This document shows, one piece after another, positions 2,211 through 30,538 of a stretch of 61,136 nucleotides of DNA (within the stretch, counting starts at the first letter, position 1; the number at the start of each line of letters is the position of its first letter). Location of the stretch: positions 1-61,136 of IMG/VR virus record IMGVR_UViG_3300019124_000008; one strand, given 5' to 3'. The notes under the pieces are model-generated. The model made no database searches, was not told where the DNA came from, and saw only the letters and a program-made list of their open reading frames with translations. A program made the translations under genes and the position numbers. Origin of the DNA: a virus (lineage: Duplodnaviria; Caudoviricetes).

Positions 2211-3074
2211 TTATCCGATCAAGCCGACTTCCCGGACGCCGCTGATCTTGACTTCGATTTCCTTGTTCTTCGAGACCCGCACGATACCGCTCCACTTGAC
2301 GACGTTGCCGTCATCATCGAGAATCGGCATCGCCGACGACTTGAGCCAGAGCAAGCCGCGCTTGGTGAGCATCGGAAATTCGGCTTCATACGGGTGAAGC
2401 GTTCTGACCGAATGCGACCAAAGCTCGCGCACTTCCTCGCGCCAGTTCGGGTGTATCAGATCGAAGAACCGAAAATCCTCGACGCACGACTCGTCTTCTC
2501 CCCAGATCGACCGGAAATCCTGATGCGGCGGCAGATAGCATCGTCCGTCCGGCGTCGCCTTCCAGAACAACTGCCGCTCCGCGCCGTTCCACGCATCGAC
2601 CGAGCCGAACGTTCGCTTGTCGGCTTGCGTCACCAACCCGACGACCGAGAACCTGTCGGTCAGCGAGCAGTATTCGCGGAACAACGGGTTGTGCGGCTTG
2701 AGATGAAACGTCATTCGGTCGAACCGGACATCGCCGCCGCAGTCGCACGGCACGATCTCTCTGACGACGAGTTGCGAGTAGCCGGATTCACCTTTCGGCT
2801 TGAGAACCATCAGCCGGTTGAGAATCGGCTTTGAGTAGCGGTGCGTGATAAAAATATCACCGGGATGAAAGTCGAGTTGCGCCAGCGATTCGTCGGATAG
2901 TTCGACGGCAAAGCGTCTCTGGACACCCCGCAGCCGCTCGGCGACCGCCGGAATGCGCTTGACCCGATACCATTGCGACTCGGTGGGTTCCGTATCGTAG
3001 ATAGGACTGTTTTTCTTCTCTGAAACTCCGAAAACTGACTGATCTTCGATTTCGGTAAAAAGTGTATCGCTCAT
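2211..3074 (-). CDS. S24/LexA C-terminal-like domain fused to a C-terminal PAS (PAS_3-like) domain
   Basis: FAVELSDESL..FHPGDIFI..LKPHNPLF..VVGLV resembles peptidase S24; IHPNWREEVRELW..YEAEF..WLKSSAMPILDDDGNVVKWSG is a typical PAS/PAC signature. Confidence 0.75.
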   Translation of the reverse strand: MSDTLFTEIEDQSVFGVSEKKNSPIYDTEPTESQWYRVKRIPAVAERLRGVQRRFAVELSDESLAQLDFHPGDIFITHRYSKPILNRLMVLKPKGESGYSQLVVREIVPCDCGGDVRFDRMTFHLKPHNPLFREYCSLTDRFSVVGLVTQADKRTFGSVDAWNGAERQLFWKATPDGRCYLPPHQDFRSIWGEDESCVEDFRFFDLIHPNWREEVRELWSHSVRTLHPYEAEFPMLTKRGLLWLKSSAMPILDDDGNVVKWSGIVRVSKNKEIEVKISGVREVGLIG

Positions 3075-3144: not shown

Positions 3145-3588
3145 TTAGTCGTCTTTCAGTTCCTTCATCTCGAAAGGATGCGCTCCGAGAGTCGAATTGG
3201 GAACTTCCCGTTCTGCCTTATAAAGCGGAATAAGCTCCGTATCTTCCTCATCGGACACGCCGACCGCTTTATCTCTATGAGTTGCTTCGATTAAAGATAC
3301 ACGCAGTCGGGTTGCCGGAATTTCAATAAAGATCGCTGTGGGAATAGATGAGCTTAATTTATTTTCCGTTGTTTCCTTTTCGAGAAACATCTCCCCATCT
3401 CCAGTTAAGAGCCAGTTCAGGTTGACGTTCGTGGTTTTTCTAATCTGGACGAGAACTTCGGCACTTGGCATTCTTCCACCGACATAATTTTTAATCGTAT
3501 TATATGGAATATCCGTTAGCCTTGAAATCTCTGCCATATTGTCTGTTCCGCAAACTTCCTGAAGTCTCGTGATAAATTCAGTCGGCAT
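3145..3588 (-). CDS. CI-like repressor (N-terminal HTH only)
   Basis: MAEISRLTDIPYNTIKNY..PSAEVL..VNLNWLLTGDGEM phage CI HTH; no complete S24 domain. Confidence 0.85.
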   Translation of the reverse strand: MPTEFITRLQEVCGTDNMAEISRLTDIPYNTIKNYVGGRMPSAEVLVQIRKTTNVNLNWLLTGDGEMFLEKETTENKLSSSIPTAIFIEIPATRLRVSLIEATHRDKAVGVSDEEDTELIPLYKAEREVPNSTLGAHPFEMKELKDD

Positions 3589-4631: not shown

Positions 4632-4967
4632 ATGACGCGGTATTCGGATGACGAAATTATGATCTTTGCCGGTCAGGTCGCCGACGCCGTTCTCAAGAGC
4701 CAGCGGCGTGAATACGAATACGCGCTCGACAAGCTCGACGGCTTCGAGGATATGCTTGACGAGGCGCGGAATGCGGCGGCTGACGAAGCCGAACGGGTCT
4801 TGCGCGATTACGACGGAGCGGCGACTTCCCCGCTGCCGAAAAATCTCTTGATGAAAATGGCGTCATCGGCGAGCTACGTTTTCGCCGAGCGGCTTTACCA
4901 TCTGATTCGGCAGAAGTATCCGTCAAAAAATTTTGCCGATTCGTTACGGGAGAACGTAAACGTATGA
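4632..4967 (+). CDS. Hypothetical protein
   Basis: GAGG RBS, coupled to next gene. Confidence 0.6.
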   Translation: MTRYSDDEIMIFAGQVADAVLKSQRREYEYALDKLDGFEDMLDEARNAAADEAERVLRDYDGAATSPLPKNLLMKMASSASYVFAERLYHLIRQKYPSKNFADSLRENVNV

Positions 4968-5407
4968 CGCAAGAGGAAAAAGACAGGTATTACTTGGACG
5001 AGGCTCGGCGCGTTTCGACGTTGAGCCACGACCCATCGACCCAGACCGGGTGCGTCATCGTCAGCGAGGGTATGCTTCTGACCTACGGCTGGAACCATAT
5101 CCCGCGAGGCAAAGCGGAATGGCTCGCCGACCGAGCGACGAAGCTCAAAGTCGTCACTCATGCCGAGATTCACGCGCTCGCCAGCAACGCGGGTTGGGAT
5201 TTGCGCGGTGCGACCGCCTACATTCATCCTTGGCTTCCCTGCGGGAACTGCTTTTCCGCGTTGGTCGGAGCCGGGATTGAACGGGTCGTCGCGCCGAAGA
5301 TGGATGAGGAAAGCGACCGCTACCGGCGGTGGAAGGATGACTTCGATCTCGTCCGTGAATACGCCGCTCACGCGGGTATCGGATTGGTCGAAATGGAAGT
5401 TACTTGA
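4964..5407 (+). CDS. dCMP deaminase
   Basis: SHDPSTQTGCVIV, HAE and PCGNC zinc motifs. Confidence 0.9.
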   Translation: MTQEEKDRYYLDEARRVSTLSHDPSTQTGCVIVSEGMLLTYGWNHIPRGKAEWLADRATKLKVVTHAEIHALASNAGWDLRGATAYIHPWLPCGNCFSALVGAGIERVVAPKMDEESDRYRRWKDDFDLVREYAAHAGIGLVEMEVT

Positions 5408-5423
5408 AAACGTAATTTTTCGC

Positions 5424-5453
5424 TTGACAAATGATTACGTTCTAGTGTAAATT
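5424..5453 (+). promoter_or_regulatory. Sigma70 promoter with TTACG palindrome in the spacer
   Basis: TTGACA 5424; TTACGTTCTAGTGTAA 5435-5450. Confidence 0.65.
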
Positions 5454-5935: not shown

Positions 5936-5964
5936 TTGACAAAAGTTACGTCGTAACGTATATT
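5936..5964 (+). promoter_or_regulatory. Sigma70 promoter with TTACG palindrome
   Basis: TTGACA 5936, 17 bp, TATATT 5959; TTACGTCGTAACGTAT 5946-5961. Confidence 0.7.
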
Positions 5965-6039
5965 AGAAAATGTCAGCGGGAAACGAAACCGAAAGACAGG
6001 AATCGAAACAAAAAAAAACTTAAAAAGAGAGGAAATCGA

Positions 6040-13200: not shown

Positions 13201-13537
13201 CTTTGAAGAGCTTTTCAAGCAAGTTCCGGTGACGAAGAAGAGATCGGAGAAAGAGCGCAAATCCGCGCTTCATTTCGCCAGCCGGTTGATCGACCTGATC
13301 GCCGAGGCGAAGCAGAATGAAGTGAGCGATTACGAAATGGTCGAACACGCGCTGACGACGCTCCGCGCCGAGCCGAGCCTTCTTGTCGAGGAAGAGTTCA
13401 CCGCTGCGGGAAGCCGGGTAATCGAGTGGGATGACCAAGGAAAGCCGCTCGCCGCCGAGTATGAGCCGGATGAAGAAGAGGTAATCGGCGAAGCCGACGA
13501 GCCGAAAGGGGGTAAACGGAAAAATGAGCGGAAATAG
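13190..13537 (+). CDS. Hypothetical protein
   Basis: GGGAG RBS. Confidence 0.6.
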   Translation: MNINFEELFKQVPVTKKRSEKERKSALHFASRLIDLIAEAKQNEVSDYEMVEHALTTLRAEPSLLVEEEFTAAGSRVIEWDDQGKPLAAEYEPDEEEVIGEADEPKGGKRKNERK

Positions 13538-13982
13538 TCCGACCGTTTATCTTGCCGGAGCGATTACCGGCGAGCGTTACGACGGAGCGACCGATTGGCG
13601 CGAGCGCGTTGCCACCGAGCTTGATTACGTCGGGATTACCGCCTTTTCGCCGATGCGCGGCAAGGAATATCTCGACACGGAAAAGCCGATTGCGGCTGAA
13701 TACTCGGACAGGATTCTCTCGAACAGCCGAGCGATTATGACGCGGGATTTCTTCGACGTTCGCCGCGCCGATCTGCTGCTCGTCAATCTGCTCGGAACCC
13801 GCAAGGCGTCAATCGGAACGACGATGGAGATTGCGTGGGGTTATCAGTTACAGAAGCCGATTGTGCTTGTGATGGAGCCGGAGAACGTGCATAACCATCC
13901 GATGATTCGTGAAGCGGTCGGCTATTGGGTTGAGAGCTTGGACGACGCCGTGTATGTCGCCAAGAGCGTATTACTGCCGTAA
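13524..13982 (+). CDS. Nucleoside 2-deoxyribosyltransferase-like protein
   Basis: VYLAGAI, D..DVRRAD, SIGTTMEIAWGYQLQKPI. Confidence 0.85.
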   Translation: MSGNSPTVYLAGAITGERYDGATDWRERVATELDYVGITAFSPMRGKEYLDTEKPIAAEYSDRILSNSRAIMTRDFFDVRRADLLLVNLLGTRKASIGTTMEIAWGYQLQKPIVLVMEPENVHNHPMIREAVGYWVESLDDAVYVAKSVLLP

Positions 13983-14013: not shown

Positions 14014-14469
14014 ATGAGTAGCTTATTAGATGCAATCAGACGGGAAGAACAGCAACAACAGGAAACCAAGGCGAAGGTTCTCGGATTCGATTTGGCGACC
14101 GGCAACCCGATCACCGAAGACGATCTGAAAGCCGGGTTCAAGGCTGACGCTGGCAAGGCGAGAATCGACCTCATCCCGGCAGACGTTTTGATGGAACTCG
14201 GCAAGCTGTACGCCAAGGGAGCGGAAAAGTACGCCGACAACAACTGGAAGCTCGGCATGGACTACGGTCGGGTCTATTCGGCGATGATGCGCCACGCTCT
14301 CAAGTTCTGGAGCGGCGAAGAGTTCGACCCGGACGGTCAGCATCATCTCGATTCGGTCATCTGGAACGCGATCACGCTGCGGTACTTCCAGCTTCACCGG
14401 GAAAAATACGCGCAGTTTGACGACCGCAACCGCGAGCCGGTGCGAGCCGAGGAAAAGGGTCAGAAGTAA
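14014..14469 (+). CDS. dATP/dGTP diphosphohydrolase domain protein (DUF5664-like)
   Basis: KADAGKARIDLIP, GAEKYADNNW, AMMRH, HHL..VIWN. Confidence 0.85.
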   Translation: MSSLLDAIRREEQQQQETKAKVLGFDLATGNPITEDDLKAGFKADAGKARIDLIPADVLMELGKLYAKGAEKYADNNWKLGMDYGRVYSAMMRHALKFWSGEEFDPDGQHHLDSVIWNAITLRYFQLHREKYAQFDDRNREPVRAEEKGQK

Positions 14470-20588: not shown

Positions 20589-20633
20589 TGGTTCATCTGG
20601 GTCACGGCTATAAGCGATGACCCGGATGACCCA
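20589..20633. repeat. 45-bp four-box element, copy 6
   Basis: Core CGGCTATAAGCGA. Confidence 0.9.
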
Positions 20634-20663
20634 AAATCGAAACGAAAGGGAGAGGAAGAAGAG

Positions 20664-21961: not shown

Positions 21962-21990
21962 TTGACTTATCAAATAGATTTTGATATATT
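21962..21990 (+). promoter_or_regulatory. Sigma70 promoter with TATCAAAT palindrome
   Basis: TTGACT, 17 bp, TATATT with TATCAAATAGATTTTGATA. Confidence 0.7.
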
Positions 21991-22703: not shown

Positions 22704-22767
22704 TTGACATATCAAATACATTTTGCTATATTAATAATCAAGCGGTCGGAAGGAAGATAACCGACCG
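22704..22767 (+). promoter_or_regulatory. Sigma70 promoter, operator and short leader hairpin
   Basis: TTGACA 22704, TATATT 22727; CGGTCGG/CCGACCG stem. Confidence 0.7.
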
Positions 22768-23101: not shown

Positions 23102-23296
23102 ATGGACACCGTAAAAACGACCAATACTAGCAATCGCACATCGCAGACGCAGCGCGGCAGCGCGGCAGGTTCAACCGCCGGATTCCGGTTCTGGGGTTTC
23201 TACTCAAACAACAAGCCGAACCCGGAAGCCGAGGCAAAAGCTCGGTCGATTCGAGAGAGTCTCGAAGCGATCAACAGAAGGAACCGAGGCAACTGA
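23102..23296 (+). CDS. Hypothetical protein
   Basis: Same operator-RBS block. Confidence 0.6.
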   Translation: MDTVKTTNTSNRTSQTQRGSAAGSTAGFRFWGFYSNNKPNPEAEAKARSIRESLEAINRRNRGN

Positions 23297-23758: not shown

Positions 23759-24059
23759 AAACGATATGAGCAAGATGAATTTTGACAGCAGAATCGAATG
23801 GCTCAGAAGCCGCAACGGAAGCGTCGAGTTCTTCCCGGTCGAAGCGCACGGCGTCAAGCTCGTCCGGGTCGAGGTCAAGATCAGACGCCGGGGAGCCGAA
23901 GAGACGTTCGCCTACGACTTCGCACAGGAATACTTCTACGACGGTATGAGTATGAACATTTCCTACGCCATCCAGAGTGCTTACTGGCAACTCGAAGGGT
24001 CGCAGAAGACGGCTCCCGGCGACGGAGAAAAAATCGCCGCCGAAGTAGAAAGTGCTTGA
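23751..24059 (+). CDS. Hypothetical protein
   Basis: Operon continuity. Confidence 0.55.
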   Translation: MIRNDMSKMNFDSRIEWLRSRNGSVEFFPVEAHGVKLVRVEVKIRRRGAEETFAYDFAQEYFYDGMSMNISYAIQSAYWQLEGSQKTAPGDGEKIAAEVESA

Positions 24060-24095
24060 CAATTAGTTACGTTATGATGTAATATGGTTTCATCA

Positions 24096-24155
24096 ATCGG
24101 GAACGGCTGAACGCGCTAGAGAAAGCCAAAAGACAGTATCGCCAGCCGTTCCGAT
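24096..24155 (+). ncRNA. 33-nt-loop leader RNA motif, copy A
   Basis: Stem ATCGG(G)AACGGCTG/CAGCCGTTCCGAT around loop 24110-24142; follows TTGACA 24056. Confidence 0.7.
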
Positions 24156-24192
24156 CAAAAAATCAAATTACGTTAAACGAGGAAAAATAAAA

Positions 24193-24426
24193 ATGGAAAA
24201 CATACTGCAAATTGATTCGCCGGAAAAGTTCCTGTTACTTGATCTTCTGAAAACCGAAAAAGCCAAGATCGGCAAATACCTGAACGACAGCGCAGCCAAG
24301 ATCGCCTCGGCGAAGCTCAAGGGAAAAGCGACCCATCAGCTTTGGGAAAACCGCTTCGAGAAGGAACGCCAACTGAAGGTCATCGACAATCTGATCGAAA
24401 AGACAAGCAAGTTGCAGACGAGATAA
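24193..24426 (+). CDS. Hypothetical protein
   Basis: GAGG RBS. Confidence 0.65.
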   Translation: MENILQIDSPEKFLLLDLLKTEKAKIGKYLNDSAAKIASAKLKGKATHQLWENRFEKERQLKVIDNLIEKTSKLQTR

Positions 24427-24495
24427 AAAATTTCAAAAAAAGTTCGAGCAGGGGATTGACATTTCAAATAGTATTTGATAGTATTAAGAATGTAA

Positions 24496-24550
24496 GCGGT
24501 GATCGACCCGCGCTAGAGAAAGCCAAAAGATAAATTCACTCGATCACCGC
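24496..24550 (+). ncRNA. 33-nt-loop leader RNA motif, copy B
   Basis: Stem GCGGTGATCGA/TCGATCACCGC; follows TTGACA 24456. Confidence 0.7.
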
Positions 24551-24604
24551 CATTTTTAACCAAAGCAGTTACATTACAACGTAAATCTTGAGAGGAAAAA
24601 CGAA

Positions 24605-25153
24605 ATGAAAAACAACGTCGCTATTTTTGAAATTGAAGGTGTGGGTCGGGTGATCGGGGATTTGTCGAACAGCAAGCTGGTTCCGATAGTTCAGTACGAA
24701 GACGGAAATGCCTGTCTCGCCTTGCAGCGGAACGAGTCCGAAGCGGCACAGGTCGGCTACGAATCGGTCGCCATCGCCAACTTTGTCCACGAAGCGGTTC
24801 ACCTGTTCATCGCGCACAAGGTCGGCTTCATCGAAACGTCGGTCGCCTACCGCGAAGGTCTGAAGGCTGATTTCAACGACCCGGAAATTCTCGAAGACGC
24901 CAAATACGAAGAGCAGATCGTTCTCGGCTTTCAAGCCTTCATCAACGACGCGCTCGGCGAGTTTCTCGAAAAGCCGAAGGTCAAGGGGTTCAGCTTCCAC
25001 GTTGTAACTTCGGCGGTCAAGTGGAGCGAGCATCTGCTGGCGGAAAGAGGCTTCAATCAGAAGGAACTGGCTTTCGAGTTCATCAGCCTCTTCCACGATC
25101 AGGTCAAGGCAGACTGCGGAGTCCGGCACAAGATCAGGCTCTCGGAAGATTAA
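24605..25153 (+). CDS. Putative zinc metalloprotein (HExxH)
   Basis: VHEAVH plus downstream EE. Confidence 0.55.
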   Translation: MKNNVAIFEIEGVGRVIGDLSNSKLVPIVQYEDGNACLALQRNESEAAQVGYESVAIANFVHEAVHLFIAHKVGFIETSVAYREGLKADFNDPEILEDAKYEEQIVLGFQAFINDALGEFLEKPKVKGFSFHVVTSAVKWSEHLLAERGFNQKELAFEFISLFHDQVKADCGVRHKIRLSED

Positions 25154-25159
25154 GGAAAA

Positions 25160-25204
25160 CGGGTCATCTGGGTCATCGCTATAAGGGATGACCCAAGTGA
25201 CCCA
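25160..25204. repeat. 45-bp four-box element, copy 7
   Basis: Core TCGCTATAAGGGA. Confidence 0.9.
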
Positions 25205-25238
25205 AAAAGAGAAAACAAAACGAAGGGAGAAAGGAAAA

Positions 25239-25412
25239 ATGAACATATTCGATGCGCTTGCAATCATCATCACCGTCGTCGTCGGCACAGGAATCATCGG
25301 TCTGCTCTTCTGCTGGCTGATCGAGTGGAAGGAACCGAAGCCGATCTACCCGGCTCGCCGGTTCGAGACGGTCGAAGAGGAACTTGAGTTCGAGGCACAG
25401 TTTTACTTTTAA
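25239..25412 (+). CDS. Small single-TM protein
   Basis: RBS, hydrophobic N-terminus. Confidence 0.6.
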   Translation: MNIFDALAIIITVVVGTGIIGLLFCWLIEWKEPKPIYPARRFETVEEELEFEAQFYF

Positions 25413-25428
25413 GAGGGAGAGAAAAGAG

Positions 25429-25788
25429 ATGAAAAAACTAACGAAGGAAAGAGCGGCAATCAACTTGGCATCGGAGTTACTGTCGAAGATGGATGGAGAC
25501 GAAATAACAATCAGCGAATATGACCTTGAGGTTTTCGAGTCAATCTGTCTGCTGTCATACGTCGGAAATAAGACGTATGTCGGAATCATCAAACAGGTCA
25601 TTCAAAAGTTGGATGATGCCGAGGCTCGATGGCAAAGGGAAATCGAAGAAGATCAAGTCAGTTATGTTTATTGGGATGACGAGAAAGTGCGCCGAGCGGC
25701 ATTGAAGCTGGCGAGAGCGCAGAAGGAAAAGGTCAATCGGTATCTCAAACCTGAAGACCGATACGAAATCAAGCCGGAATTGACTTGA
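25429..25788 (+). CDS. Hypothetical protein
   Basis: GGGAG RBS. Confidence 0.65.
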   Translation: MKKLTKERAAINLASELLSKMDGDEITISEYDLEVFESICLLSYVGNKTYVGIIKQVIQKLDDAEARWQREIEEDQVSYVYWDDEKVRRAALKLARAQKEKVNRYLKPEDRYEIKPELT

Positions 25789-25826
25789 CATATCAAATAG
25801 TATTTGATATATTAGTAATCAAGTTA

Positions 25827-25885
25827 GGGGAACGAACCGAACGCGCTAGAGAAAGCCGAAAGACAAAATCACCGGACGGTTCCCC
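25827..25885 (+). ncRNA. 33-nt-loop leader RNA motif, copy C
   Basis: Stem GGGGAAC..CCG/CGG..GTTCCCC; follows TTGACA 25785. Confidence 0.7.
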
Positions 25886-25916
25886 GAAAGAAAATCGAAG
25901 CGAGGAAAAACGGAAA

Positions 25917-26225
25917 ATGGCGATAGAAACGAAGGTCAGTCACAGTTACAGAGATTATTCATCGGTTTACATCAAGTGCGACATCTGCGGCGACAAGCAG
26001 AAACTTTACAGCTACGGCAATCCAGCGGGTGCGAGATACGGAAGGTTTTTCACCGAGCAGACGAGAAACGAATTTCACCGGAACCATCCAGAAACGCCGC
26101 ACGAATCGGTCAAGCAAGCCGAGGCAAGCCGGAAGGCAGAGGAAAGGAACAAAAAGGCGGCAGAGCGCGAGGAACGACGCAAGGCGAAGGAAGCCGCGAA
26201 GAGCATTCAGCCGAGCTTATTTTAA
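25917..26225 (+). CDS. Zinc-finger-like protein with basic C-terminal helix
   Basis: KCDICG..HRNH; C-terminus QPSLF resembles a beta-clamp-binding motif. Confidence 0.6.
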   Translation: MAIETKVSHSYRDYSSVYIKCDICGDKQKLYSYGNPAGARYGRFFTEQTRNEFHRNHPETPHESVKQAEASRKAEERNKKAAEREERRKAKEAAKSIQPSLF

Positions 26226-26247
26226 TCGAAGGGAGAGGAAAAACGAG

Positions 26248-26565
26248 ATGAAAAAGAACAACGTCAAAGCAACGATAACAACCGCGCCGTACTACTTCGG
26301 GAGCCACACTTGGACGCTCGAACTGACGAAAGACGGACAAACGAAAAGCTACTATCTTGGACAAGATGGAAAGGTCGTCACGCGGCTGCTCGGATTGACA
26401 ATCAATCGGTTCTCGAACCTTATCCGAAACCACGCGAAGCTCGGAGTGAACGCGCCGATTGACTTCAGAAAGCAGAAGGTTCGTGATGCGGTCGGAGCCT
26501 TAATCGTCAAGAGCCTCGGCATCGCCGACTTCCCCGAAAATTCTTGGGATTTGGCGGCAGACTAA
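26248..26565 (+). CDS. Hypothetical protein
   Basis: GGGAGAGG RBS. Confidence 0.65.
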   Translation: MKKNNVKATITTAPYYFGSHTWTLELTKDGQTKSYYLGQDGKVVTRLLGLTINRFSNLIRNHAKLGVNAPIDFRKQKVRDAVGALIVKSLGIADFPENSWDLAAD

Positions 26566-26608
26566 AGATCGGAACTTTGAAAATATGGTATATGGAGCGG
26601 GGGTCGGC

Positions 26609-26686
26609 ACTAGCAATCGCGCCTTCGACAGCCGCTCCAATACTAGCAATCGCGGGGTCGAAAAGGCATCAGCACTAGCAATCGCG
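26609..26686. repeat. Three spaced copies of ACTAGCAATCGCG
   Basis: 26609, 26642, 26674; period 33 and 32. Confidence 0.85.
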
Positions 26687-26726
26687 GGTTTGGAAGCCGC
26701 GAACGAATTGAGGGAGATGAGCAGCA

Positions 26727-26915
26727 ATGGAAAAGGAAATCAGAGAACTAATCGAACAGATCGAACGGCGGCGAAAGGAAATCGAGGGAACAGAGCCGGA
26801 GAGCGTTTCGCAAGCCTCGCGCCTTCGGGGAGAAGCCGAGGCTTACATTCAGATCAGCTACCGGCTGAAGGCGATCTTGGTAAAGGCGCGGTGCGCCGGG
26901 AAGAGCGGAAAATGA
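26727..26915 (+). CDS. Hypothetical protein
   Basis: RBS, coupled to next ORF. Confidence 0.5.
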   Translation: MEKEIRELIEQIERRRKEIEGTEPESVSQASRLRGEAEAYIQISYRLKAILVKARCAGKSGK

Positions 26916-27070
26916 AAGCAGTCGAACAGATCAGAGCGACGACCAGCAACTTCAGCCGAGCCGTGCGGGTCAATACGAAAGACGACCTGCACATTCAGCC
27001 GCGACAGAAGCGCGTCAAGGCACTCCGGCGGTTTCTCAAGCTCGCCGACCGGCTCCAGATCGAAGCCTAG
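26912..27070 (+). CDS. Small basic protein
   Basis: ATGA overlap. Confidence 0.45.
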   Translation: MKAVEQIRATTSNFSRAVRVNTKDDLHIQPRQKRVKALRRFLKLADRLQIEA

Positions 27071-27242
27071 ATCGTCTATACGGTCTATCGTGAGCATTTC
27101 TGGGTTTCGATGAGCCAGCTAACTTTTTACCGGCTTGCTCTTCGAGGCGACATCTCGAAAGCCGAAATTCTCGACCTCTACCGGGAGACCGCCGGGTAAG
27201 CCGGAAGCCGCCGAGACCTTCGCGCAGCCGGGAGAGCGGTTT

Positions 27243-27287
27243 TGGGTCATCTGGGTCACCGCCATTAGTGCTGACCCAAGTGACCCG
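27243..27287. repeat. 45-bp four-box element, copy 8
   Basis: Core CCGCCATTAGTGC. Confidence 0.9.
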
Positions 27288-27600
27288 TTTTTCGTTTCCG
27301 AACCGGAAAACTTCCCCGCTCGCCGCCGGGTGGATGCCGACCCGCACACCAAGCCGGAAGCCGGTAAACGCGCCTGTCGCACGTTGGAAGCCGCCGGGTG
27401 CAGCCACCGCCTACGACGCACGACAAAAAGCCGCCAAACGCGCTCGCAGCCGCCTATGCGATCAGCCGCCGGAATCGCCGCCGCCTTCCCCGGCTCGGCA
27501 ATCCGGGGAAGATCAGCCGGGAAAACTTTTTTTTTCGGTATGACGTAATTTTTTTGTTGACATATCAAATAGTATTTGATACGATTATGACAGTTGATAA

Positions 27601-27649
27601 CTGATCGGAATGCGGTAGAGAAACCCAAAAGAAAATTTCACTCGGTTAG
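27601..27649 (+). ncRNA. 33-nt-loop leader RNA motif, copy D
   Basis: Stem CTGATCGG/TCGGTTAG with three G-U pairs; follows TTGACA 27557. Confidence 0.65.
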
Positions 27650-27703
27650 AGATCGGCGAAAAGAAAAAAAAATCAACTTGAAAAGGAAGGTAAAAACTAA
27701 ATT

Positions 27704-27844
27704 ATGGATTATTTAACAATTGCTTGCTTGTTTGTCATATTCGCTTTGTTTGTCGTCGCCGCTTGGTGCGATTTTGAGACCGAACAAATTATTGATCGGC
27801 AAAAAAGATCGGCGGCTGTTTTGGAAGGAAAAAATTTTGATTGA
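27704..27844 (+). CDS. 46-aa single-TM protein (absent from ORF track)
   Basis: MDYLTIACLFVIFALFVVAAWCDF..; AAGGAAGG upstream. Confidence 0.55.
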   Translation: MDYLTIACLFVIFALFVVAAWCDFETEQIIDRQKRSAAVLEGKNFD

Positions 27845-27899
27845 AAAATATTGCAAAAAGTATTTGACATAGTGTTACGTTATGATGTAAGATGTATTT

Positions 27900-27960
27900 C
27901 AGTTAGCAAGCCGAACGCGGTAGAGAAACCCAAAAGATAAATTCCCCGGCTTGCAAACTG
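27900..27960 (+). ncRNA. 33-nt-loop leader RNA motif, copy E
   Basis: Stem CAGTT-A-GCAAGCCG/CGGCTTGC-A-AACTG; follows TTGACA 27864. Confidence 0.7.
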
Positions 27961-28016
27961 AAAAAATTTTAACCGTAAAACATATCAAATACATTTTGAA
28001 AGAGAGGAAAAAAGAG

Positions 28017-28640
28017 ATGCCAAGAACGAAAAAAACAATTCATACGATTGCCGAATTTAACGGATTTACGAATTTTAAGACACATTGCGGATTGGATATA
28101 ACCGGCAATGAAATTGACAAAGGCGAAAAATTCGCCGAAGTAATCGAAGCGGGAGCCACGAAAAGAGAGATCAGCCGGATTAATTGTCTCGAATGCGTCA
28201 AAAAATATCACGCGCTTTTGCAAGACGAATTTTACAAGCGACATTGGAAGGATTACAGCAAAATCGAAAAAGTTTTTGCCGAAAAGATCGAGAAAGCGGC
28301 GGCTGAAGAGCCGCCAAAATCAGCCGCCGAAAAGATACAGGCGGCGGCTGAAAAATTCGAAGGTTTTACGGCTGATAGTAACGGAAACATTCTGGACATC
28401 AAAAGCGGCTTCGCTGTCTCGGTAAAAGATTTTGGGGAAGACCTCGGCGGCTTGCTCGAATATGTCAAGAAAAACAACCTTTTCATTGGATTTTGGAAGG
28501 ATGCCAAGACGGGAAAAAGATATTTTGACGCGGTTGACATCGTAGAAAAAAGAGAGACGGCAATCGAGATCGGCAAACAAACAAACCAAATTGCAATTTG
28601 GGATTTTGCGCGGTTTGAAGAGATTAGGATTGCATACTAA
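28017..28640 (+). CDS. Hypothetical two-domain protein
   Basis: THCG..CLEC N-domain; GFW.D..G.RYFD..AIEIG..NQIAIWD C-domain. Confidence 0.65.
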   Translation: MPRTKKTIHTIAEFNGFTNFKTHCGLDITGNEIDKGEKFAEVIEAGATKREISRINCLECVKKYHALLQDEFYKRHWKDYSKIEKVFAEKIEKAAAEEPPKSAAEKIQAAAEKFEGFTADSNGNILDIKSGFAVSVKDFGEDLGGLLEYVKKNNLFIGFWKDAKTGKRYFDAVDIVEKRETAIEIGKQTNQIAIWDFARFEEIRIAY

Positions 28641-28710
28641 AAGATTTTCGGTTTGACGTAACTTTTTAGTTGACATATTAAATAGTATTTGATACTCTTA
28701 TATCAGTTAA

Positions 28711-28761
28711 GGCGGTTTGAACGTGCTAGGGAAAGCCAAAAGACAAAATCACCAAGCCGCC
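28711..28761 (+). ncRNA. 33-nt-loop leader RNA motif, copy F
   Basis: Stem GGCGGTTTG/CAAGCCGCC; follows TTGACA 28670. Confidence 0.7.
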
Positions 28762-28824
28762 GACAGCTAAAAAATTTTGAAGTTAGATCATATCAAATAC
28801 ATTTTGAAAGAGAGGAAAGAAAAA

Positions 28825-29466
28825 ATGAATTTACCGAATTTCGATACTTTAGTTGAAAACATCTTGGCGGTTTATAACCAAGCGGCTGAAATAGAAAAAA
28901 CCGAGTCAATCCAATGGTACGACAGTGCATTTATCGAATGCACCAAGATCGGCGAATTGTTCGGAGTTGACAGCAAAGCGGCAATCGCGGTTTGCGCGGT
29001 TCTCTCGCCAAACAACAATTGGAACCGCAACTTGATTGACCTTATGACGGTTTTACGCGCTTTTGAGAGCGGCAAACTTGAAAAGCTATATAACGAATAC
29101 AAAGCCGGAAAAAAGACGGCATTTCACGCGCTCGGCATTGCAACTTACTCGCCTAATATTGCCAAGGCATTCGAGATTCTAACCGGCAACTTCGATTCTC
29201 TCAAAGGTCAAAAAGTAACGGCTTTCTTTCATAACATCTACTATCCGAATAGCGAGCTTGTAACGATTGATTTTCACGCCTATTCAATAGCGGTCAACTT
29301 TCGTCATACCGCCAAGACTTGTCCGAATATATCGGCGGCTGAAAACCGGATTTTACAGGATGCATACAAGACGGCGGCTGAAAAGATCGGCTTGCTTCCG
29401 AAGCAACTTCAAGCGGTAACTTGGGTAGTATGGCGTCGGCTGCACAATATCAGATTCGCGGGATAA
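28825..29466 (+). CDS. Phage protein with HhH-GPD glycosylase-like motifs
   Basis: WY, AVLSPNNNW, GQKVTAF, VTIDFH, LQAVTW. Confidence 0.6.
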   Translation: MNLPNFDTLVENILAVYNQAAEIEKTESIQWYDSAFIECTKIGELFGVDSKAAIAVCAVLSPNNNWNRNLIDLMTVLRAFESGKLEKLYNEYKAGKKTAFHALGIATYSPNIAKAFEILTGNFDSLKGQKVTAFFHNIYYPNSELVTIDFHAYSIAVNFRHTAKTCPNISAAENRILQDAYKTAAEKIGLLPKQLQAVTWVVWRRLHNIRFAG

Positions 29467-29631: not shown

Positions 29632-30204
29632 TCCGATTGACCTTTGAAGGGAAGCAAGACAATAGCAACTTGCTTCCCCGGATGAGTGAAGTTTTTTGGT
29701 TTATCGTTTGGTTTATCGTTTTCTTATTGTTTCTTATCGTTTGGTTTATCGTTTTCTTATTCGGACAATCCGCGTACCAAACTCGGTTATTTGATAAAAA
29801 TTTTTCCCCGGATGCTTCCCCGGCTTTGATCGGCTAAGCGAATAAAGGCGTTTTAAGCGCGTTTTATCTTTCAAGGCATACCAAAGTAAGGCTTTGACGG
29901 TCAAACAGCCGAGAGAGCCGTTTCTGCTCAAATGTGAAGGCATTCCATCAAGGTCAATCGGCGGCTGATCGGCATTGCTTCCCCGGATTGACCAGCCGCG
30001 TTAAACCAAGTTGTTAAACATTTTGAGCCGATTGTTTAACATCGAGGTATAAGCAAAAATTTATCATCCATCAATAAAAATTATAGTTATCCAAGCCGGG
30101 GATGACCTTAAATTTTGCCGGGGGTACACCGACCGATGTGCGAGCTTGCGCGTATGATTTTTGGTTTTCGATAAAATTCCAGCCGCGAGGAAAAAACCGT
30201 ATAT

Positions 30205-30300
30205 ACTAACGGATTTACTAACGGATTTACTAACGGATTTACTAACGGATTTACTAACGGATTTACTAACGGATTTACTAACGGACATACCAACGGGTCA
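30205..30300. repeat. 12-bp tandem repeat ACTAACGGATTT, 6 perfect and 2 degenerate units
   Basis: Read directly. Confidence 0.95.
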
Positions 30301-30538
30301 TAAATCAAAGATCGCCACTCACCGACAACCCGAATTTTACCAAAAATCGCCTCGAAATTCAGCGTTTATCGAGCCGCCAAGTCGAATATCGGAACTTCAC
30401 ATCGGGGTTTAACATAATAAGTAACAAATAAGGGTGATACTTGGGGAGAGTATATTATTTAATAAGAGATCAATAAGAGATTACCATAATTTATACTCAT
30501 AAGAGCTACCATAACTTCTCTTTATGGGTAATAAAATC

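What the first reader, a model, noticed from the sequence alone, without database searches (positions are those of the whole stretch)
24056..28761. Six promoter-proximal RNAs present an invariant-length 33-nt loop on unrelated stems: candidate new structured RNA system
Seen: just after six sigma70 promoters (TTGACA at 24056, 24456, 25785, 27557, 27864, 28670) lies a stem with a different sequence in each copy, yet complementary, with G-U pairs in copies D and F that favour the + strand RNA. Each stem closes a loop of exactly 33 nt: A aacgcgctagagaaagccaaaagacagtatcgc; B cccgcgctagagaaagccaaaagataaattcac; C aacgcgctagagaaagccgaaagacaaaatcac; D aatgcggtagagaaacccaaaagaaaatttcac; E aacgcggtagagaaacccaaaagataaattccc; F aacgtgctagggaaagccaaaagacaaaatcac. 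An inner hairpin covaries (GCT-AGAGAA-AGC vs GGT-AGAGAA-ACC) and is followed by C(A/G)AAA and GA-N5-TC, suggesting a three-way junction. Knowledge: the inner hairpin resembles lambdoid boxB (P22 GCGCUGACAAAGCGC), and promoter-plus-stem-loop cassettes are known in T4-type phages. Inference: these are 5' leader ligands for an antiterminator or RNA polymerase, or highly expressed decoy RNAs that titrate a host defence protein.
Basis: partly seen in the sequence, partly recalled or inferred. Interest (0 to 1): 0.88.

Follow-up and report, generated by a model that had tools for sequence, protein, structure and literature searches.

The report
Six conserved-loop phage leader RNA hairpins
An orphan temperate phage from a soil-crust metagenome begins six of its transcription units with the same 33-base RNA module, held each time in a stem of different sequence; this looks like a new regulatory leader RNA, but its job is unknown.

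Summary
Six + strand copies of a 33-nt module (20 of 33 positions invariant, no length change) lie 0-8 nt after the predicted starts of six sigma70-type promoters. Each is closed by a 9-15 bp helix whose arms are about as unlike as random sequence yet stay complementary (11 of 11 core pairs changed on both sides; 0 of 500 shuffles reach this). G-U pairs in copies D and F favour the + strand. No Rfam family matches.

No copy was found outside this 61-kb virus record, in IMG/VR, JGI metagenomes, 185,579 species genomes or GenBank phages. The phage has no close relatives in these collections, so phylogenetic covariation and expression could not be tested.

Inside the loop only one pair covaries (7:16). 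The proposed three-way junction is one of three models that fit equally well.

Best reading: a 5'-terminal leader RNA. The helix caps the mRNA 5' end, and the purine-rich module is a common docking site that puts six ORFan cassettes under joint post-initiation control. Rival readings remain open: nut/put-like antitermination, decoy RNA, ribozyme, or a DNA-level cassette boundary.

It is a new RNA motif of a known general kind, known from one genome only. Interest is moderate.

The parts
24056..24085 (+). Promoter A: TTGACA, 18 nt, TAATAT. The spacer holds a TTAC-N8-GTAA operator-like repeat.
24096..24155 (+). Element A: closing helix P1 24096-24109 / 24143-24155 (one bulged G), 33-nt module 24110-24142. 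Precedes a 77-aa ORFan (24193-24426).
   Evidence: (71.8 bits)
24456..24484 (+). Promoter B: TTGACA, 17 nt, TAGTAT with TG extension. A palindromic operator (TCAAATA-N-TATTTGA type) lies in the spacer.
24496..24550 (+). Element B: P1 of 11 bp (24496-24506 / 24540-24550), module 24507-24539. Precedes a 182-aa ORFan and two small genes.
   Evidence: 75.5 bits; z -5.28
25785..25813 (+). Promoter C: TTGACA, 17 nt, TATATT, same palindromic operator. It overlaps the end of the preceding gene.
25827..25885 (+). Element C: P1 of 7 + 3 bp around a 3x3 internal loop, module 25840-25872. Precedes a 102-aa zinc-ribbon-like ORFan (25917-26225).
   Evidence: (72.5 bits)
27557..27585 (+). Promoter D: TTGACA, 17 nt, TACGAT with TG extension and the palindromic operator. 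The upstream 64 nt are 88% identical to those of F.
27593..27657 (+). Element D: P1 of 6 + 8 bp with three G-U pairs in the core helix, module 27609-27641. Precedes a 46-aa hydrophobic peptide gene (27704-27844).
   Evidence: 69.1 bits; + strand -14.6, - strand -8.7 kcal/mol
27864..27893 (+). Promoter E: TTGACA, 18 nt, TAAGAT, with a TTAC-N8-GTAA operator-like repeat identical to that of A.
27899..27961 (+). Element E: P1 of 6 + 8 bp with one A.A mismatch, module 27914-27946. Precedes a 207-aa ORFan (28017-28640) that has no relative among 5.8 billion proteins.
   Evidence: 77.8 bits; z -5.73
28670..28698 (+). Promoter F: TTGACA, 17 nt, TACTCT (weak -10 with TG extension) and the palindromic operator.
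   Evidence: not listed by the stricter scan
28706..28764 (+). Element F: core P1 of 9 bp (28711-28719 / 28753-28761, one U-G pair), module 28720-28752. Precedes a DUF7178 gene (28825-29466).
   Evidence: 74.4 bits; + strand -16.7, - strand -13.3 kcal/mol
22743..22767 (+). Related feature, not a copy: a plain 7-bp hairpin with an 11-nt purine-rich loop. It sits at the same distance after a seventh promoter of the same operator type (22704-22732).
   Evidence: not matched by model R1

Best explanation
The six elements are cis-encoded 5'-terminal leader RNAs of six phage transcription units. Each near-consensus sigma70 promoter yields a transcript whose first 60-70 nt fold into a long closing helix, P1. 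P1 has 9-15 pairs and a different sequence in every copy. It presents a fixed 33-nt module that is about 70% purine. The module contains a short hairpin (pairs 6:17, 7:16 and 8:15) with an AGRGAA loop that can be read as a GNRA tetraloop closed by A.A. An A-rich tail follows.

The proposed mechanism has two parts. First, P1 begins 0-8 nt from the predicted start, so it buries the 5' end and protects the mRNA from 5'-end-dependent decay. Second, the conserved module is a docking site for one common trans-acting factor: a phage or host protein, or the ribosome or polymerase itself. That would place the six ORFan cassettes under joint control after initiation. Having a unique P1 sequence in each copy would keep each element folding locally in read-through transcripts and would limit recombination between copies.

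Shown here: copy number, strand, promoter linkage, P1 covariation, conservation of the module, and absence from Rfam. Inferred: transcription, the exact 5' ends, 5'-end protection, and the existence and identity of the factor.
For: Six copies on one strand against 0 expected. P1 covariation is strong: 11 of 11 pairs changed on both sides and 0 of 500 shuffles reach it. The arms are 32-36% identical while the loop is 82% identical with no indel. This means selection on the loop sequence and on pairing, not recent duplication.

The gap between the -10 hexamer and the first P1 pair is 5-13 nt in all six copies, which leaves 0-8 unpaired 5' nt. A seventh promoter of the same type (22704) has a plain hairpin at the same place, and the promoter at 5424 has a 6-bp one. 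A 5' hairpin is therefore a recurring feature here, and the 33-nt module is an addition to it.

No U-tract follows P1 on either strand, so these are not terminators. The Shine-Dalgarno sites lie 20-45 nt further on and are not paired with the element. G-U pairs in D and F fit the transcribed strand.

From the literature: the B. subtilis RNA pyrophosphohydrolase needs at least two unpaired 5' nucleotides (passage of PMC3997798). That review's reference list also includes titles on 5' stem-loop and polypurine stabilisers.
Against: No transcription data exist. The only public run that holds the sequence is the probable source DNA metagenome. A simple tetraloop would be enough for 5' protection, so that role does not explain the module. 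No RNA-binding protein family was recognised among 77 ORFs scanned with Pfam, 20 of them also with PHROGs. No homologues exist to show that the module is conserved beyond one genome. The host is unknown, so its decay machinery is unknown.
Confidence: 0.42

Rival explanations
1. Processive antitermination signal, nut-like (bound by a phage N-type protein) or put-like (the RNA itself binds RNA polymerase). The nascent element would modify the polymerase that made it, so that it reads through terminators into downstream genes and perhaps into the 30-kb co-directional late region.
For: The element is about 60-70 nt and lies next to the promoter, like putL, which starts at nucleotide 3 of its transcript (passages of PMC9378689). 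It has a small purine-loop hairpin with a covarying stem. All six units point toward the structural genes beyond 30 kb. A hairpin plus T-run lies inside the cluster at 27244-27300, and another lies before promoter D. Loop positions 25-30 always read N-A-N-N-N-T, a -10-like pattern; a -10-like hexamer is proposed to aid putL folding (passage).
Against: put has two long stem-loops in a V shape and occurs twice per genome. Here there is one closing helix with a 33-nt loop, in six copies, and each unit has its own strong promoter. No boxA-like motif lies in any leader: 24 matches in the window against 26.4 expected, none in a leader. No N-like protein was recognised. There are few convincing + strand terminators between units D, E and F.
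Confidence: 0.18
2. The element is only a generic 5' stabiliser hairpin. On this view the loop is alike in the six copies because of gene conversion or cassette shuffling, not because it binds a specific ligand.
For: The cassettes are mosaic. A and E share a promoter type and B, C, D and F share another. D and E share the inner hairpin type. B and E share the loop 3' part. E and F share 85% of 59 nt of downstream leader. D and F share 88% of 64 nt upstream. Plain 5' hairpins follow other promoters.
Against: Conversion tracts would need to stop exactly at the loop ends six times while both arms drifted to near-random identity and stayed complementary. The 13 variable loop positions are scattered among 20 invariant ones and there is no indel, which is the pattern of purifying selection.
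Confidence: 0.12
3. Decoy or sponge RNA. The abundant 5' modules would mimic a host RNA, such as a CRISPR repeat or a type III antitoxin repeat, and so titrate a defence protein.
For: There are six copies behind strong promoters. The 33-nt unit is in the size range I recall for CRISPR repeats and ToxI-like repeats. One cargo gene gives a weak structural lead to a Lar-type restriction-alleviation protein (TM 0.47, below the usual 0.5).
Against: The relaxed 30-nt pattern has 0 matches in one genome from each of 185,579 species, so no sequenced host array or RNA of this sequence exists there. The copies are dispersed (spacing 305-1769 nt), not tandem. Each is fused to an mRNA with no terminator that would release a small RNA.
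Confidence: 0.08
4. DNA-level element: a single-strand DNA hairpin, or a boundary sequence used for recombinational shuffling of promoter-ORFan cassettes, as proposed for PeSLs.
For: The element is associated with ORFan cassettes, and the modules around it are mosaic. PeSLs mediate such shuffling in T4-type phages (abstract and passages of PMC2839356).
Against: Recombination needs shared sequence, but the arms are unrelated. A 33-nt loop disfavours cruciform extrusion. Three G-T pairs in the core helix of D, and one in F, would be A.C mismatches on the other strand. The element sits inside the transcribed leader, not at a terminator.
Confidence: 0.07
5. A new small self-cleaving ribozyme, or a nuclease processing site, that trims the leader and resets the mRNA 5' end.
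For: The architecture is like that of small ribozymes: a variable closing helix around a fixed-length core of about 33 nt with 20 invariant positions. From recall, phages often carry small ribozymes.
Against: There is no match to any Rfam ribozyme even at E up to 10 on 80-nt queries. No supported pseudoknot or second helix exists.
Confidence: 0.05

Closest known systems
HK022 put RNAs (putL, putR)
   Same: A cis-acting leader RNA of about 70 nt directly after an early phage promoter (putL). Stems are kept by pairing, and conserved unpaired bases make the contacts (passages of PMC9378689).
   Different: put has two long stem-loops forming a V with a minor-groove triplex, and two copies per genome. 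Here there is one closing helix, a 33-nt loop and six copies. Binding to polymerase is untested.
Lambdoid nut sites (boxA + boxB)
   Same: A small promoter-distal hairpin with a purine-rich, GNRA-like loop in early leaders. This description of nut is recalled knowledge.
   Different: As I recall it, boxB is a free 15-nt hairpin (5-bp stem, 5-nt loop) preceded by boxA, in two copies. Here the stem is 3 bp, the loop is 6 nt, the hairpin lies inside a long closing helix, no leader has a boxA-like motif, and there are six copies.
T4-type PeSL cassettes (promoter-early stem-loop)
   Same: Near-consensus sigma70 promoters with an adjacent stem-loop, repeated many times next to ORFans in a plastic genome region. 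Mosaic cassettes (PMC2839356 and PMC4122927, abstracts and passages).
   Different: The PeSL stem-loop is a terminator for upstream transcription, with a conserved G-run/C-run stem and an unremarkable loop. Here the stems are unrelated, the loop is conserved, there is no U-tract, and the hairpin lies in the transcript downstream of the promoter.
5'-terminal stabiliser stem-loops and polypurine 5' stabilisers (ompA, papA, aprE, SP82 leader)
   Same: A stable hairpin within a few nucleotides of the mRNA 5' end, with purine-rich leader sequence. These are seen as titles in the reference list of PMC3997798, plus a passage of that review on the need for unpaired 5' nucleotides.
   Different: Those elements have no shared 33-nt loop module and are not a multi-copy family within one genome.
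conAn2 RNA of Gram-positive conjugative plasmids
   Same: A leader RNA with essential stem-loop and sequence features that acts in cis on elongation, helped by a small partner protein (passages of PMC8191782).
   Different: conAn2 regions are 260-600 bp, single-copy, and lie beside conAn1. No such partner was recognised here.

Membership tests
Any Rfam 15 family | Covariance-model score at or above the family's gathering threshold | tested here: not met
   0 matches at gathering score in the whole window. At E up to 10 there is nothing on the elements in a 5.1-kb query. In 80-nt queries only weak fragments appear: 7.8-18.2 bits against thresholds of 37-75 bits.
Lambdoid nut (boxA/boxB) | boxB: a free hairpin with a 5-bp stem and a GNRA-like pentaloop (feature recalled) | tested here: not met
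   The inner hairpin has 3 invariant or covarying pairs and a 6-nt loop, and it is enclosed by a 9-15 bp helix.
Lambdoid nut (boxA/boxB) | A boxA motif a few nucleotides upstream of boxB (short consensus recalled) | tested here: not met
   24 matches with up to 1 mismatch in the window against 26.4 expected. None lies on the + strand inside the six leaders.
Lambdoid nut (boxA/boxB) | A phage N-type arginine-rich antiterminator protein | tested here: inconclusive
   No such Pfam or PHROG hit. A crude arginine-window scan found several basic small ORFs but nothing diagnostic.
HK022 put | Two adjacent long stem-loops, about 70 nt in all | tested here: not met
   There is a single closing helix with a 33-nt loop. 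The put features come from passages of PMC9378689.
HK022 put | Lies just downstream of an early promoter | tested here: met
   P1 begins 5-13 nt after the -10 hexamer in all six copies.
HK022 put | Binds the beta-prime zinc-binding domain and suppresses termination without a protein factor | not testable with these tools
   This needs transcription assays.
T4-type PeSL | A sigma70-like early promoter beside ORFans in a plastic region | tested here: met
   There are six promoters. 9 of the 10 cluster genes scanned have no Pfam or PHROG family; the exception is the DUF7178 gene after F.
T4-type PeSL | The stem-loop acts as a terminator and has a conserved G-run/C-run stem | tested here: not met
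   The arms are 32-36% identical, no U-tract follows, and the hairpin is downstream of the promoter.
5'-terminal stabiliser hairpin | A stable helix within a few nucleotides of the true 5' end | tested here: inconclusive
   Met with predicted starts, leaving 0-8 unpaired nt. No 5' ends are mapped and no RNA run is listed.
RNA anti-CRISPR / solitary repeat mimic | The sequence matches a host CRISPR repeat | tested here: not met
   The relaxed 30-nt pattern has 0 matches in 185,579 species genomes. The host is unknown, so this is not exhaustive.
Type III antitoxin (ToxI-like) or phage pseudo-antitoxin | Tandem direct repeats of about 35 nt next to an endoribonuclease toxin gene (feature recalled) | tested here: not met
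   The copies are dispersed at 305-1769 nt. No ToxN/AbiQ-type family appears in the Pfam scans.

The most novel reading that the evidence does not exclude
The 33-nt module is an autonomous functional RNA that needs no dedicated protein. It could be a put-like element that binds and reprograms the RNA polymerase that has just made it, helped by the conserved -10-like N-A-N-N-N-T at loop positions 25-30. Or it could be a new miniature self-cleaving ribozyme. Either way it would form a previously unseen class of compact phage RNA that marks every transcript of an accessory-gene region.
Probability: 0.15. Interest if true: 0.8.

Novelty: new variant of a known kind. Interest (0 to 1): 0.5.

Why it matters
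Cis-acting leader RNAs known in phages (nut, put, stabiliser hairpins) are few and come from model phages. This element shows within-genome compensatory evolution as clear as a cross-species alignment usually gives: six closing helices of unrelated sequence around one fixed module. That points to an unrecognised RNA-factor pair controlling ORFan cassettes, the least understood part of phage genomes.

If the factor is found, it would give a handle on how a temperate phage co-regulates accessory genes after initiation. The element could also serve as a natural promoter-to-RBS insulator for synthetic biology.

Two limits apply. It is known from one metagenomic contig with an unknown host, and nothing about its function has been measured.

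Tried and rejected
Rfam: no family at gathering score or at E up to 10. The atpB, MIR6143 and SR6 fragments score far below threshold and were rejected.

Copies elsewhere:
- The 19-nt core pattern in IMG/VR gave 9 loci. None has flanking complementarity. Model R1 gives only local fragments of 21.8 bits or less, covering model positions 20-47. The best of these (L009) lies in frame inside an ORF, and none of the nine loci shares a protein with the window.
- A relaxed 30-nt pattern gave 0 hits in IMG/VR, 0 in metagenome contigs and 0 in genome contigs.
- blastn of 7 kb against GenBank phages found no match. A 37-nt query gave only weak hits; all 25 listed rows but one lie under annotated genes, and the best one, in Bacillus phage Nachito, lies inside a CDS.

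Relatives found through proteins:
- DUF7178 gave 65 IMG/VR loci at 26-41% identity, with 0 R1 hits.
- DNA polymerase gave 4 IMG/VR loci at 30% or less and 9 metagenome loci, the best at 48-54% on short contigs. These 13 loci gave one R1 hit, a 10.3-bit fragment. There were no similar promoter cassettes and no synteny beyond the polymerase.
- Integrase in genome contigs gave none.
- The gene after element E has only itself among 5.8 billion proteins.
- The promoter-operator pattern gave 2 unrelated IMG/VR loci. The nested-hairpin pattern gave 0.

Antisense partner: no complement of 12 nt or more to any loop lies elsewhere in the window. The 9-11-mers found lie at scattered positions away from the elements and were not tested against a chance expectation.

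tRNA-like reading: ARAGORN found 0 genes.

Additional copies in the window: with filters off, the best hit after the six scores 12.7 bits. The leader of the promoter at 5936 shares a 10-mer with the loop and, by eye, about 14 nt with one gap. R1 does not hit it, and I do not count it as a copy.

RNA-binding or antiterminator proteins: none was recognised by PHROGs or Pfam. The arginine scan was inconclusive. The Atlas look-alikes of two cargo proteins are below useful scores.

Expression: no RNA holder is listed. The only holder is a DNA run that may be the source sample.

Tools not used: structure prediction, fold search, complex prediction, the search of protein representatives and the listing of cluster members. 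No paper supplements were requested.

Full report
CONTEXT. The window is an entire IMG/VR virus record of 61,136 bases. It is linear and estimated to be 80% complete. The phage is temperate. It carries a tyrosine integrase (785-1906, - strand), a CI-type repressor (3148-3588, - strand), a primase-helicase and a family A DNA polymerase. From about 30 kb onward, all on the + strand, it carries tail, tape-measure and other structural genes. The only public run that holds the region is a biocrust metagenome DNA run that may be its source.

The phage has no close relatives in these collections:
- One local protein has only itself among 5.8 billion sequences.
- The polymerase reaches at most 54% identity, on short metagenome contigs that share no other gene.
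- No relative of the integrase was found in 185,579 species genomes.
The host is unknown. Its promoters and strong Shine-Dalgarno sites are of the classical bacterial type.

- The 21-nt core pattern occurs six times, always on the + strand, against 0.00 expected.
20 of 33 columns are invariant and mean pairwise identity is 82%, with a range of 76-91%.
- The 11 nt on either side are 36% and 32% identical, close to random. They nevertheless pair: 11 of 11 core pairs show changes on both sides and 86% of cells are paired. 0 of 500 column shuffles reach the covariation score. Sliding the partners by 1-3 columns drops pairing to 19-51%.
- A covariance model built from the six copies (R1) scores them at 69-78 bits. 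With filters off, nothing else in the window exceeds 12.7 bits.
- Four of the six copies fold with z-scores between -2.4 and -5.7; A gives -3.3 and D only -1.3.

STRAND AND TRANSCRIPTION.
- Each element follows TTGACA, 17-18 nt, TAnnnT. Five of the six promoters pass the stricter consensus scan. F has a weak -10 with a TG extension and does not.
- The gap from the -10 hexamer to the first P1 pair is 5-13 nt. With a start 6-8 nt after the -10, the RNA would carry only 0-8 unpaired 5' nucleotides.
- Four G-U pairs lie in the core helices, three in D and one in F. D and F fold clearly better as + strand RNA. A, B and E fold as well or better on the - strand and C about equally. Strand preference therefore rests on D, F and the promoters.
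- No U-run follows P1 on either strand, so these are not intrinsic terminators.
- Transcription itself is not shown.

INSIDE THE LOOP. Only pair 7:16 covaries (C-G in four copies, G-C in D and E), and this may be a single evolutionary event. With 6:17 and 8:15 it makes a 3-bp hairpin whose AGRGAA loop can be read as A.A closing a GNRA tetraloop. The single change, in F, falls on the N position.

Two further candidate pairs show the same pattern: a C.A mismatch in most copies, replaced once by C-G and once by U-A. These are 3:19 and 5:32, and they belong to mutually exclusive models.

Three models fit equally well and none is proven:
- an extension of P1 by 4:33, 5:32 and 6:31;
- a pseudoknot 12-14:29-31.

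Loop positions 25-30 always read N-A-N-N-N-T and are A/T-rich, which is a -10-like pattern. This is a lead, not a finding.

GENOMIC SETTING. A regular expression for strong promoters finds 13 on the + strand, and 6 of them carry the element.
- B, C, D and F share a palindromic operator between -35 and -10. So do the promoters at 21962 and 22704. There are 8 distinct sites in all, 13 matches against 0.07 expected.
- A and E carry a TTAC-N8-GTAA repeat. It also occurs in the CI-cro intergenic region and in other promoters, 13 matches against 0.04 expected.
- The promoter at 22704 is followed, at the same distance, by a plain 7-bp hairpin with an 11-nt purine-rich loop. The promoter at 5424 is followed by a 6-bp hairpin.
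- The cassettes are mosaic. Promoter type, inner-hairpin type, loop 3' part, upstream region and downstream leader group the six copies differently.
- The genes served are ORFans, apart from a DUF7178 protein after F.

WHAT IT IS NOT.
- It matches no Rfam family.
- It is not a tRNA-like gene.
- It is not a terminator.
- It is not a PeSL, whose stem-loop is a terminator with a conserved G/C stem.
- It is not put, which has two long stem-loops.
- It is not a typical nut site: there is no boxA-like motif in any leader, the hairpin format is different, and there are six copies.
- No antisense partner of 12 nt or more exists in the record.
- No sequenced genome carries the pattern, which argues against mimicry of a conserved host RNA or CRISPR repeat.

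MECHANISM. Near-random arms that still pair, a length-invariant and sequence-conserved loop, and a position at the very 5' end of six mRNAs together point to a leader RNA with two jobs. P1 caps the 5' end; 5' stem-loops and polypurine leaders are known stabilisers, and the B. subtilis pyrophosphohydrolase needs at least two unpaired 5' nucleotides (passage and reference titles of PMC3997798). The module would be recognised by one shared factor.

I hold this at 0.42. The rivals are antitermination at 0.18, a stabiliser with no specific ligand at 0.12, a decoy at 0.08, a DNA-level boundary at 0.07 and a ribozyme at 0.05. Everything beyond the structure itself is inference.

NOVELTY AND SCORE. 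This is a new RNA motif with convincing within-genome covariation. It belongs to a known general kind, the phage leader RNA elements. It is known from one contig, has no expression data and no identified partner. Interest is 0.5. It would rise sharply if the module proved to act on RNA polymerase or to be catalytic.

Pattern scans find only exact matches to the pattern, so diverged homologues may exist.

Noticed in passing
window 21969-21985, 22711-22727, 24463-24479, 25792-25808, 27564-27580, 28677-28693; also 27984-28000 and 28792-28808: A 17-bp palindromic operator-like site (TCAAATA-N-TATTTGA type) sits between -35 and -10 of six promoters. It recurs just upstream of the ribosome-binding sites of the genes after elements E and F. 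There are 13 matches against 0.07 expected. It probably binds a second repressor distinct from CI.
   Followed up: partly
window 576, 3845, 5890, 16840, 16873, 22806, 23064, 24066, 24569, 27874, 43835, 48417: A TTAC-N8-GTAA repeat family, 13 matches against 0.04 expected. It occurs in the CI-cro intergenic region, in the spacers of promoters A and E, in similar form in the promoters at 5424, 5936, 16864 and 42993, and directly before three ribosome-binding sites. It is a candidate CI/Cro operator set.
   Followed up: partly
window 20590-20636, 25161-25207, 27244-27290: Three copies of a nested double hairpin (two GGGTCA arms, then two TGACCC arms). Only the third is followed by a T-run, so it is a likely terminator. 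No match in IMG/VR.
   Followed up: partly
window 30186-30305, and 29689-29761: A 12-nt unit is repeated head to tail about eight times, with a nearby pair of 28-nt direct repeats. They lie between the cassette cluster and the structural genes and look like iterons (an origin or a protein-binding array).
   Followed up: no
window 4964-5404, 13524-13979, 14014-14466: A dCMP deaminase, a nucleoside 2-deoxyribosyltransferase-like protein and a dATP/dGTP diphosphohydrolase N-terminal domain protein. This nucleotide-pool toolkit hints at modified DNA bases.
   Followed up: no
window 2214-3074 (- strand): A PAS-domain protein is encoded next to the CI-type repressor and the integrase. It could provide a sensory input to the lysis-lysogeny decision.
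   Followed up: no
window 5965-6010: The leader after the promoter at 5936 shares a 10-mer with the 33-nt module and, by eye, about 14 nt with one gap plus a following AAUC. It lacks a closing helix and model R1 does not hit it. It may be a decayed relative.
   Followed up: partly
window 27300-27545: A GC-rich stretch of about 240 nt has no convincing gene. It lies between the terminator-like hairpin and promoter D, and it ends in a 7-bp hairpin followed by a run of nine T.
   Followed up: no
window 26604-26700, and 23125-23137: A 13-nt motif (ACTAGCAATCGCG) occurs three times within 100 nt, in the gap between two genes of unit C, and once more at 23125.
   Followed up: no
L095 (IMG/VR contig, 5.7 kb held): An unrelated phage fragment carries 12 consensus promoters of TTGAC-N17-TATACT type in 5 kb, most of them directly before a ribosome-binding site and short ORF, with no 5' hairpin module. 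The cassette architecture is comparable but lacks the RNA element.
   Followed up: no
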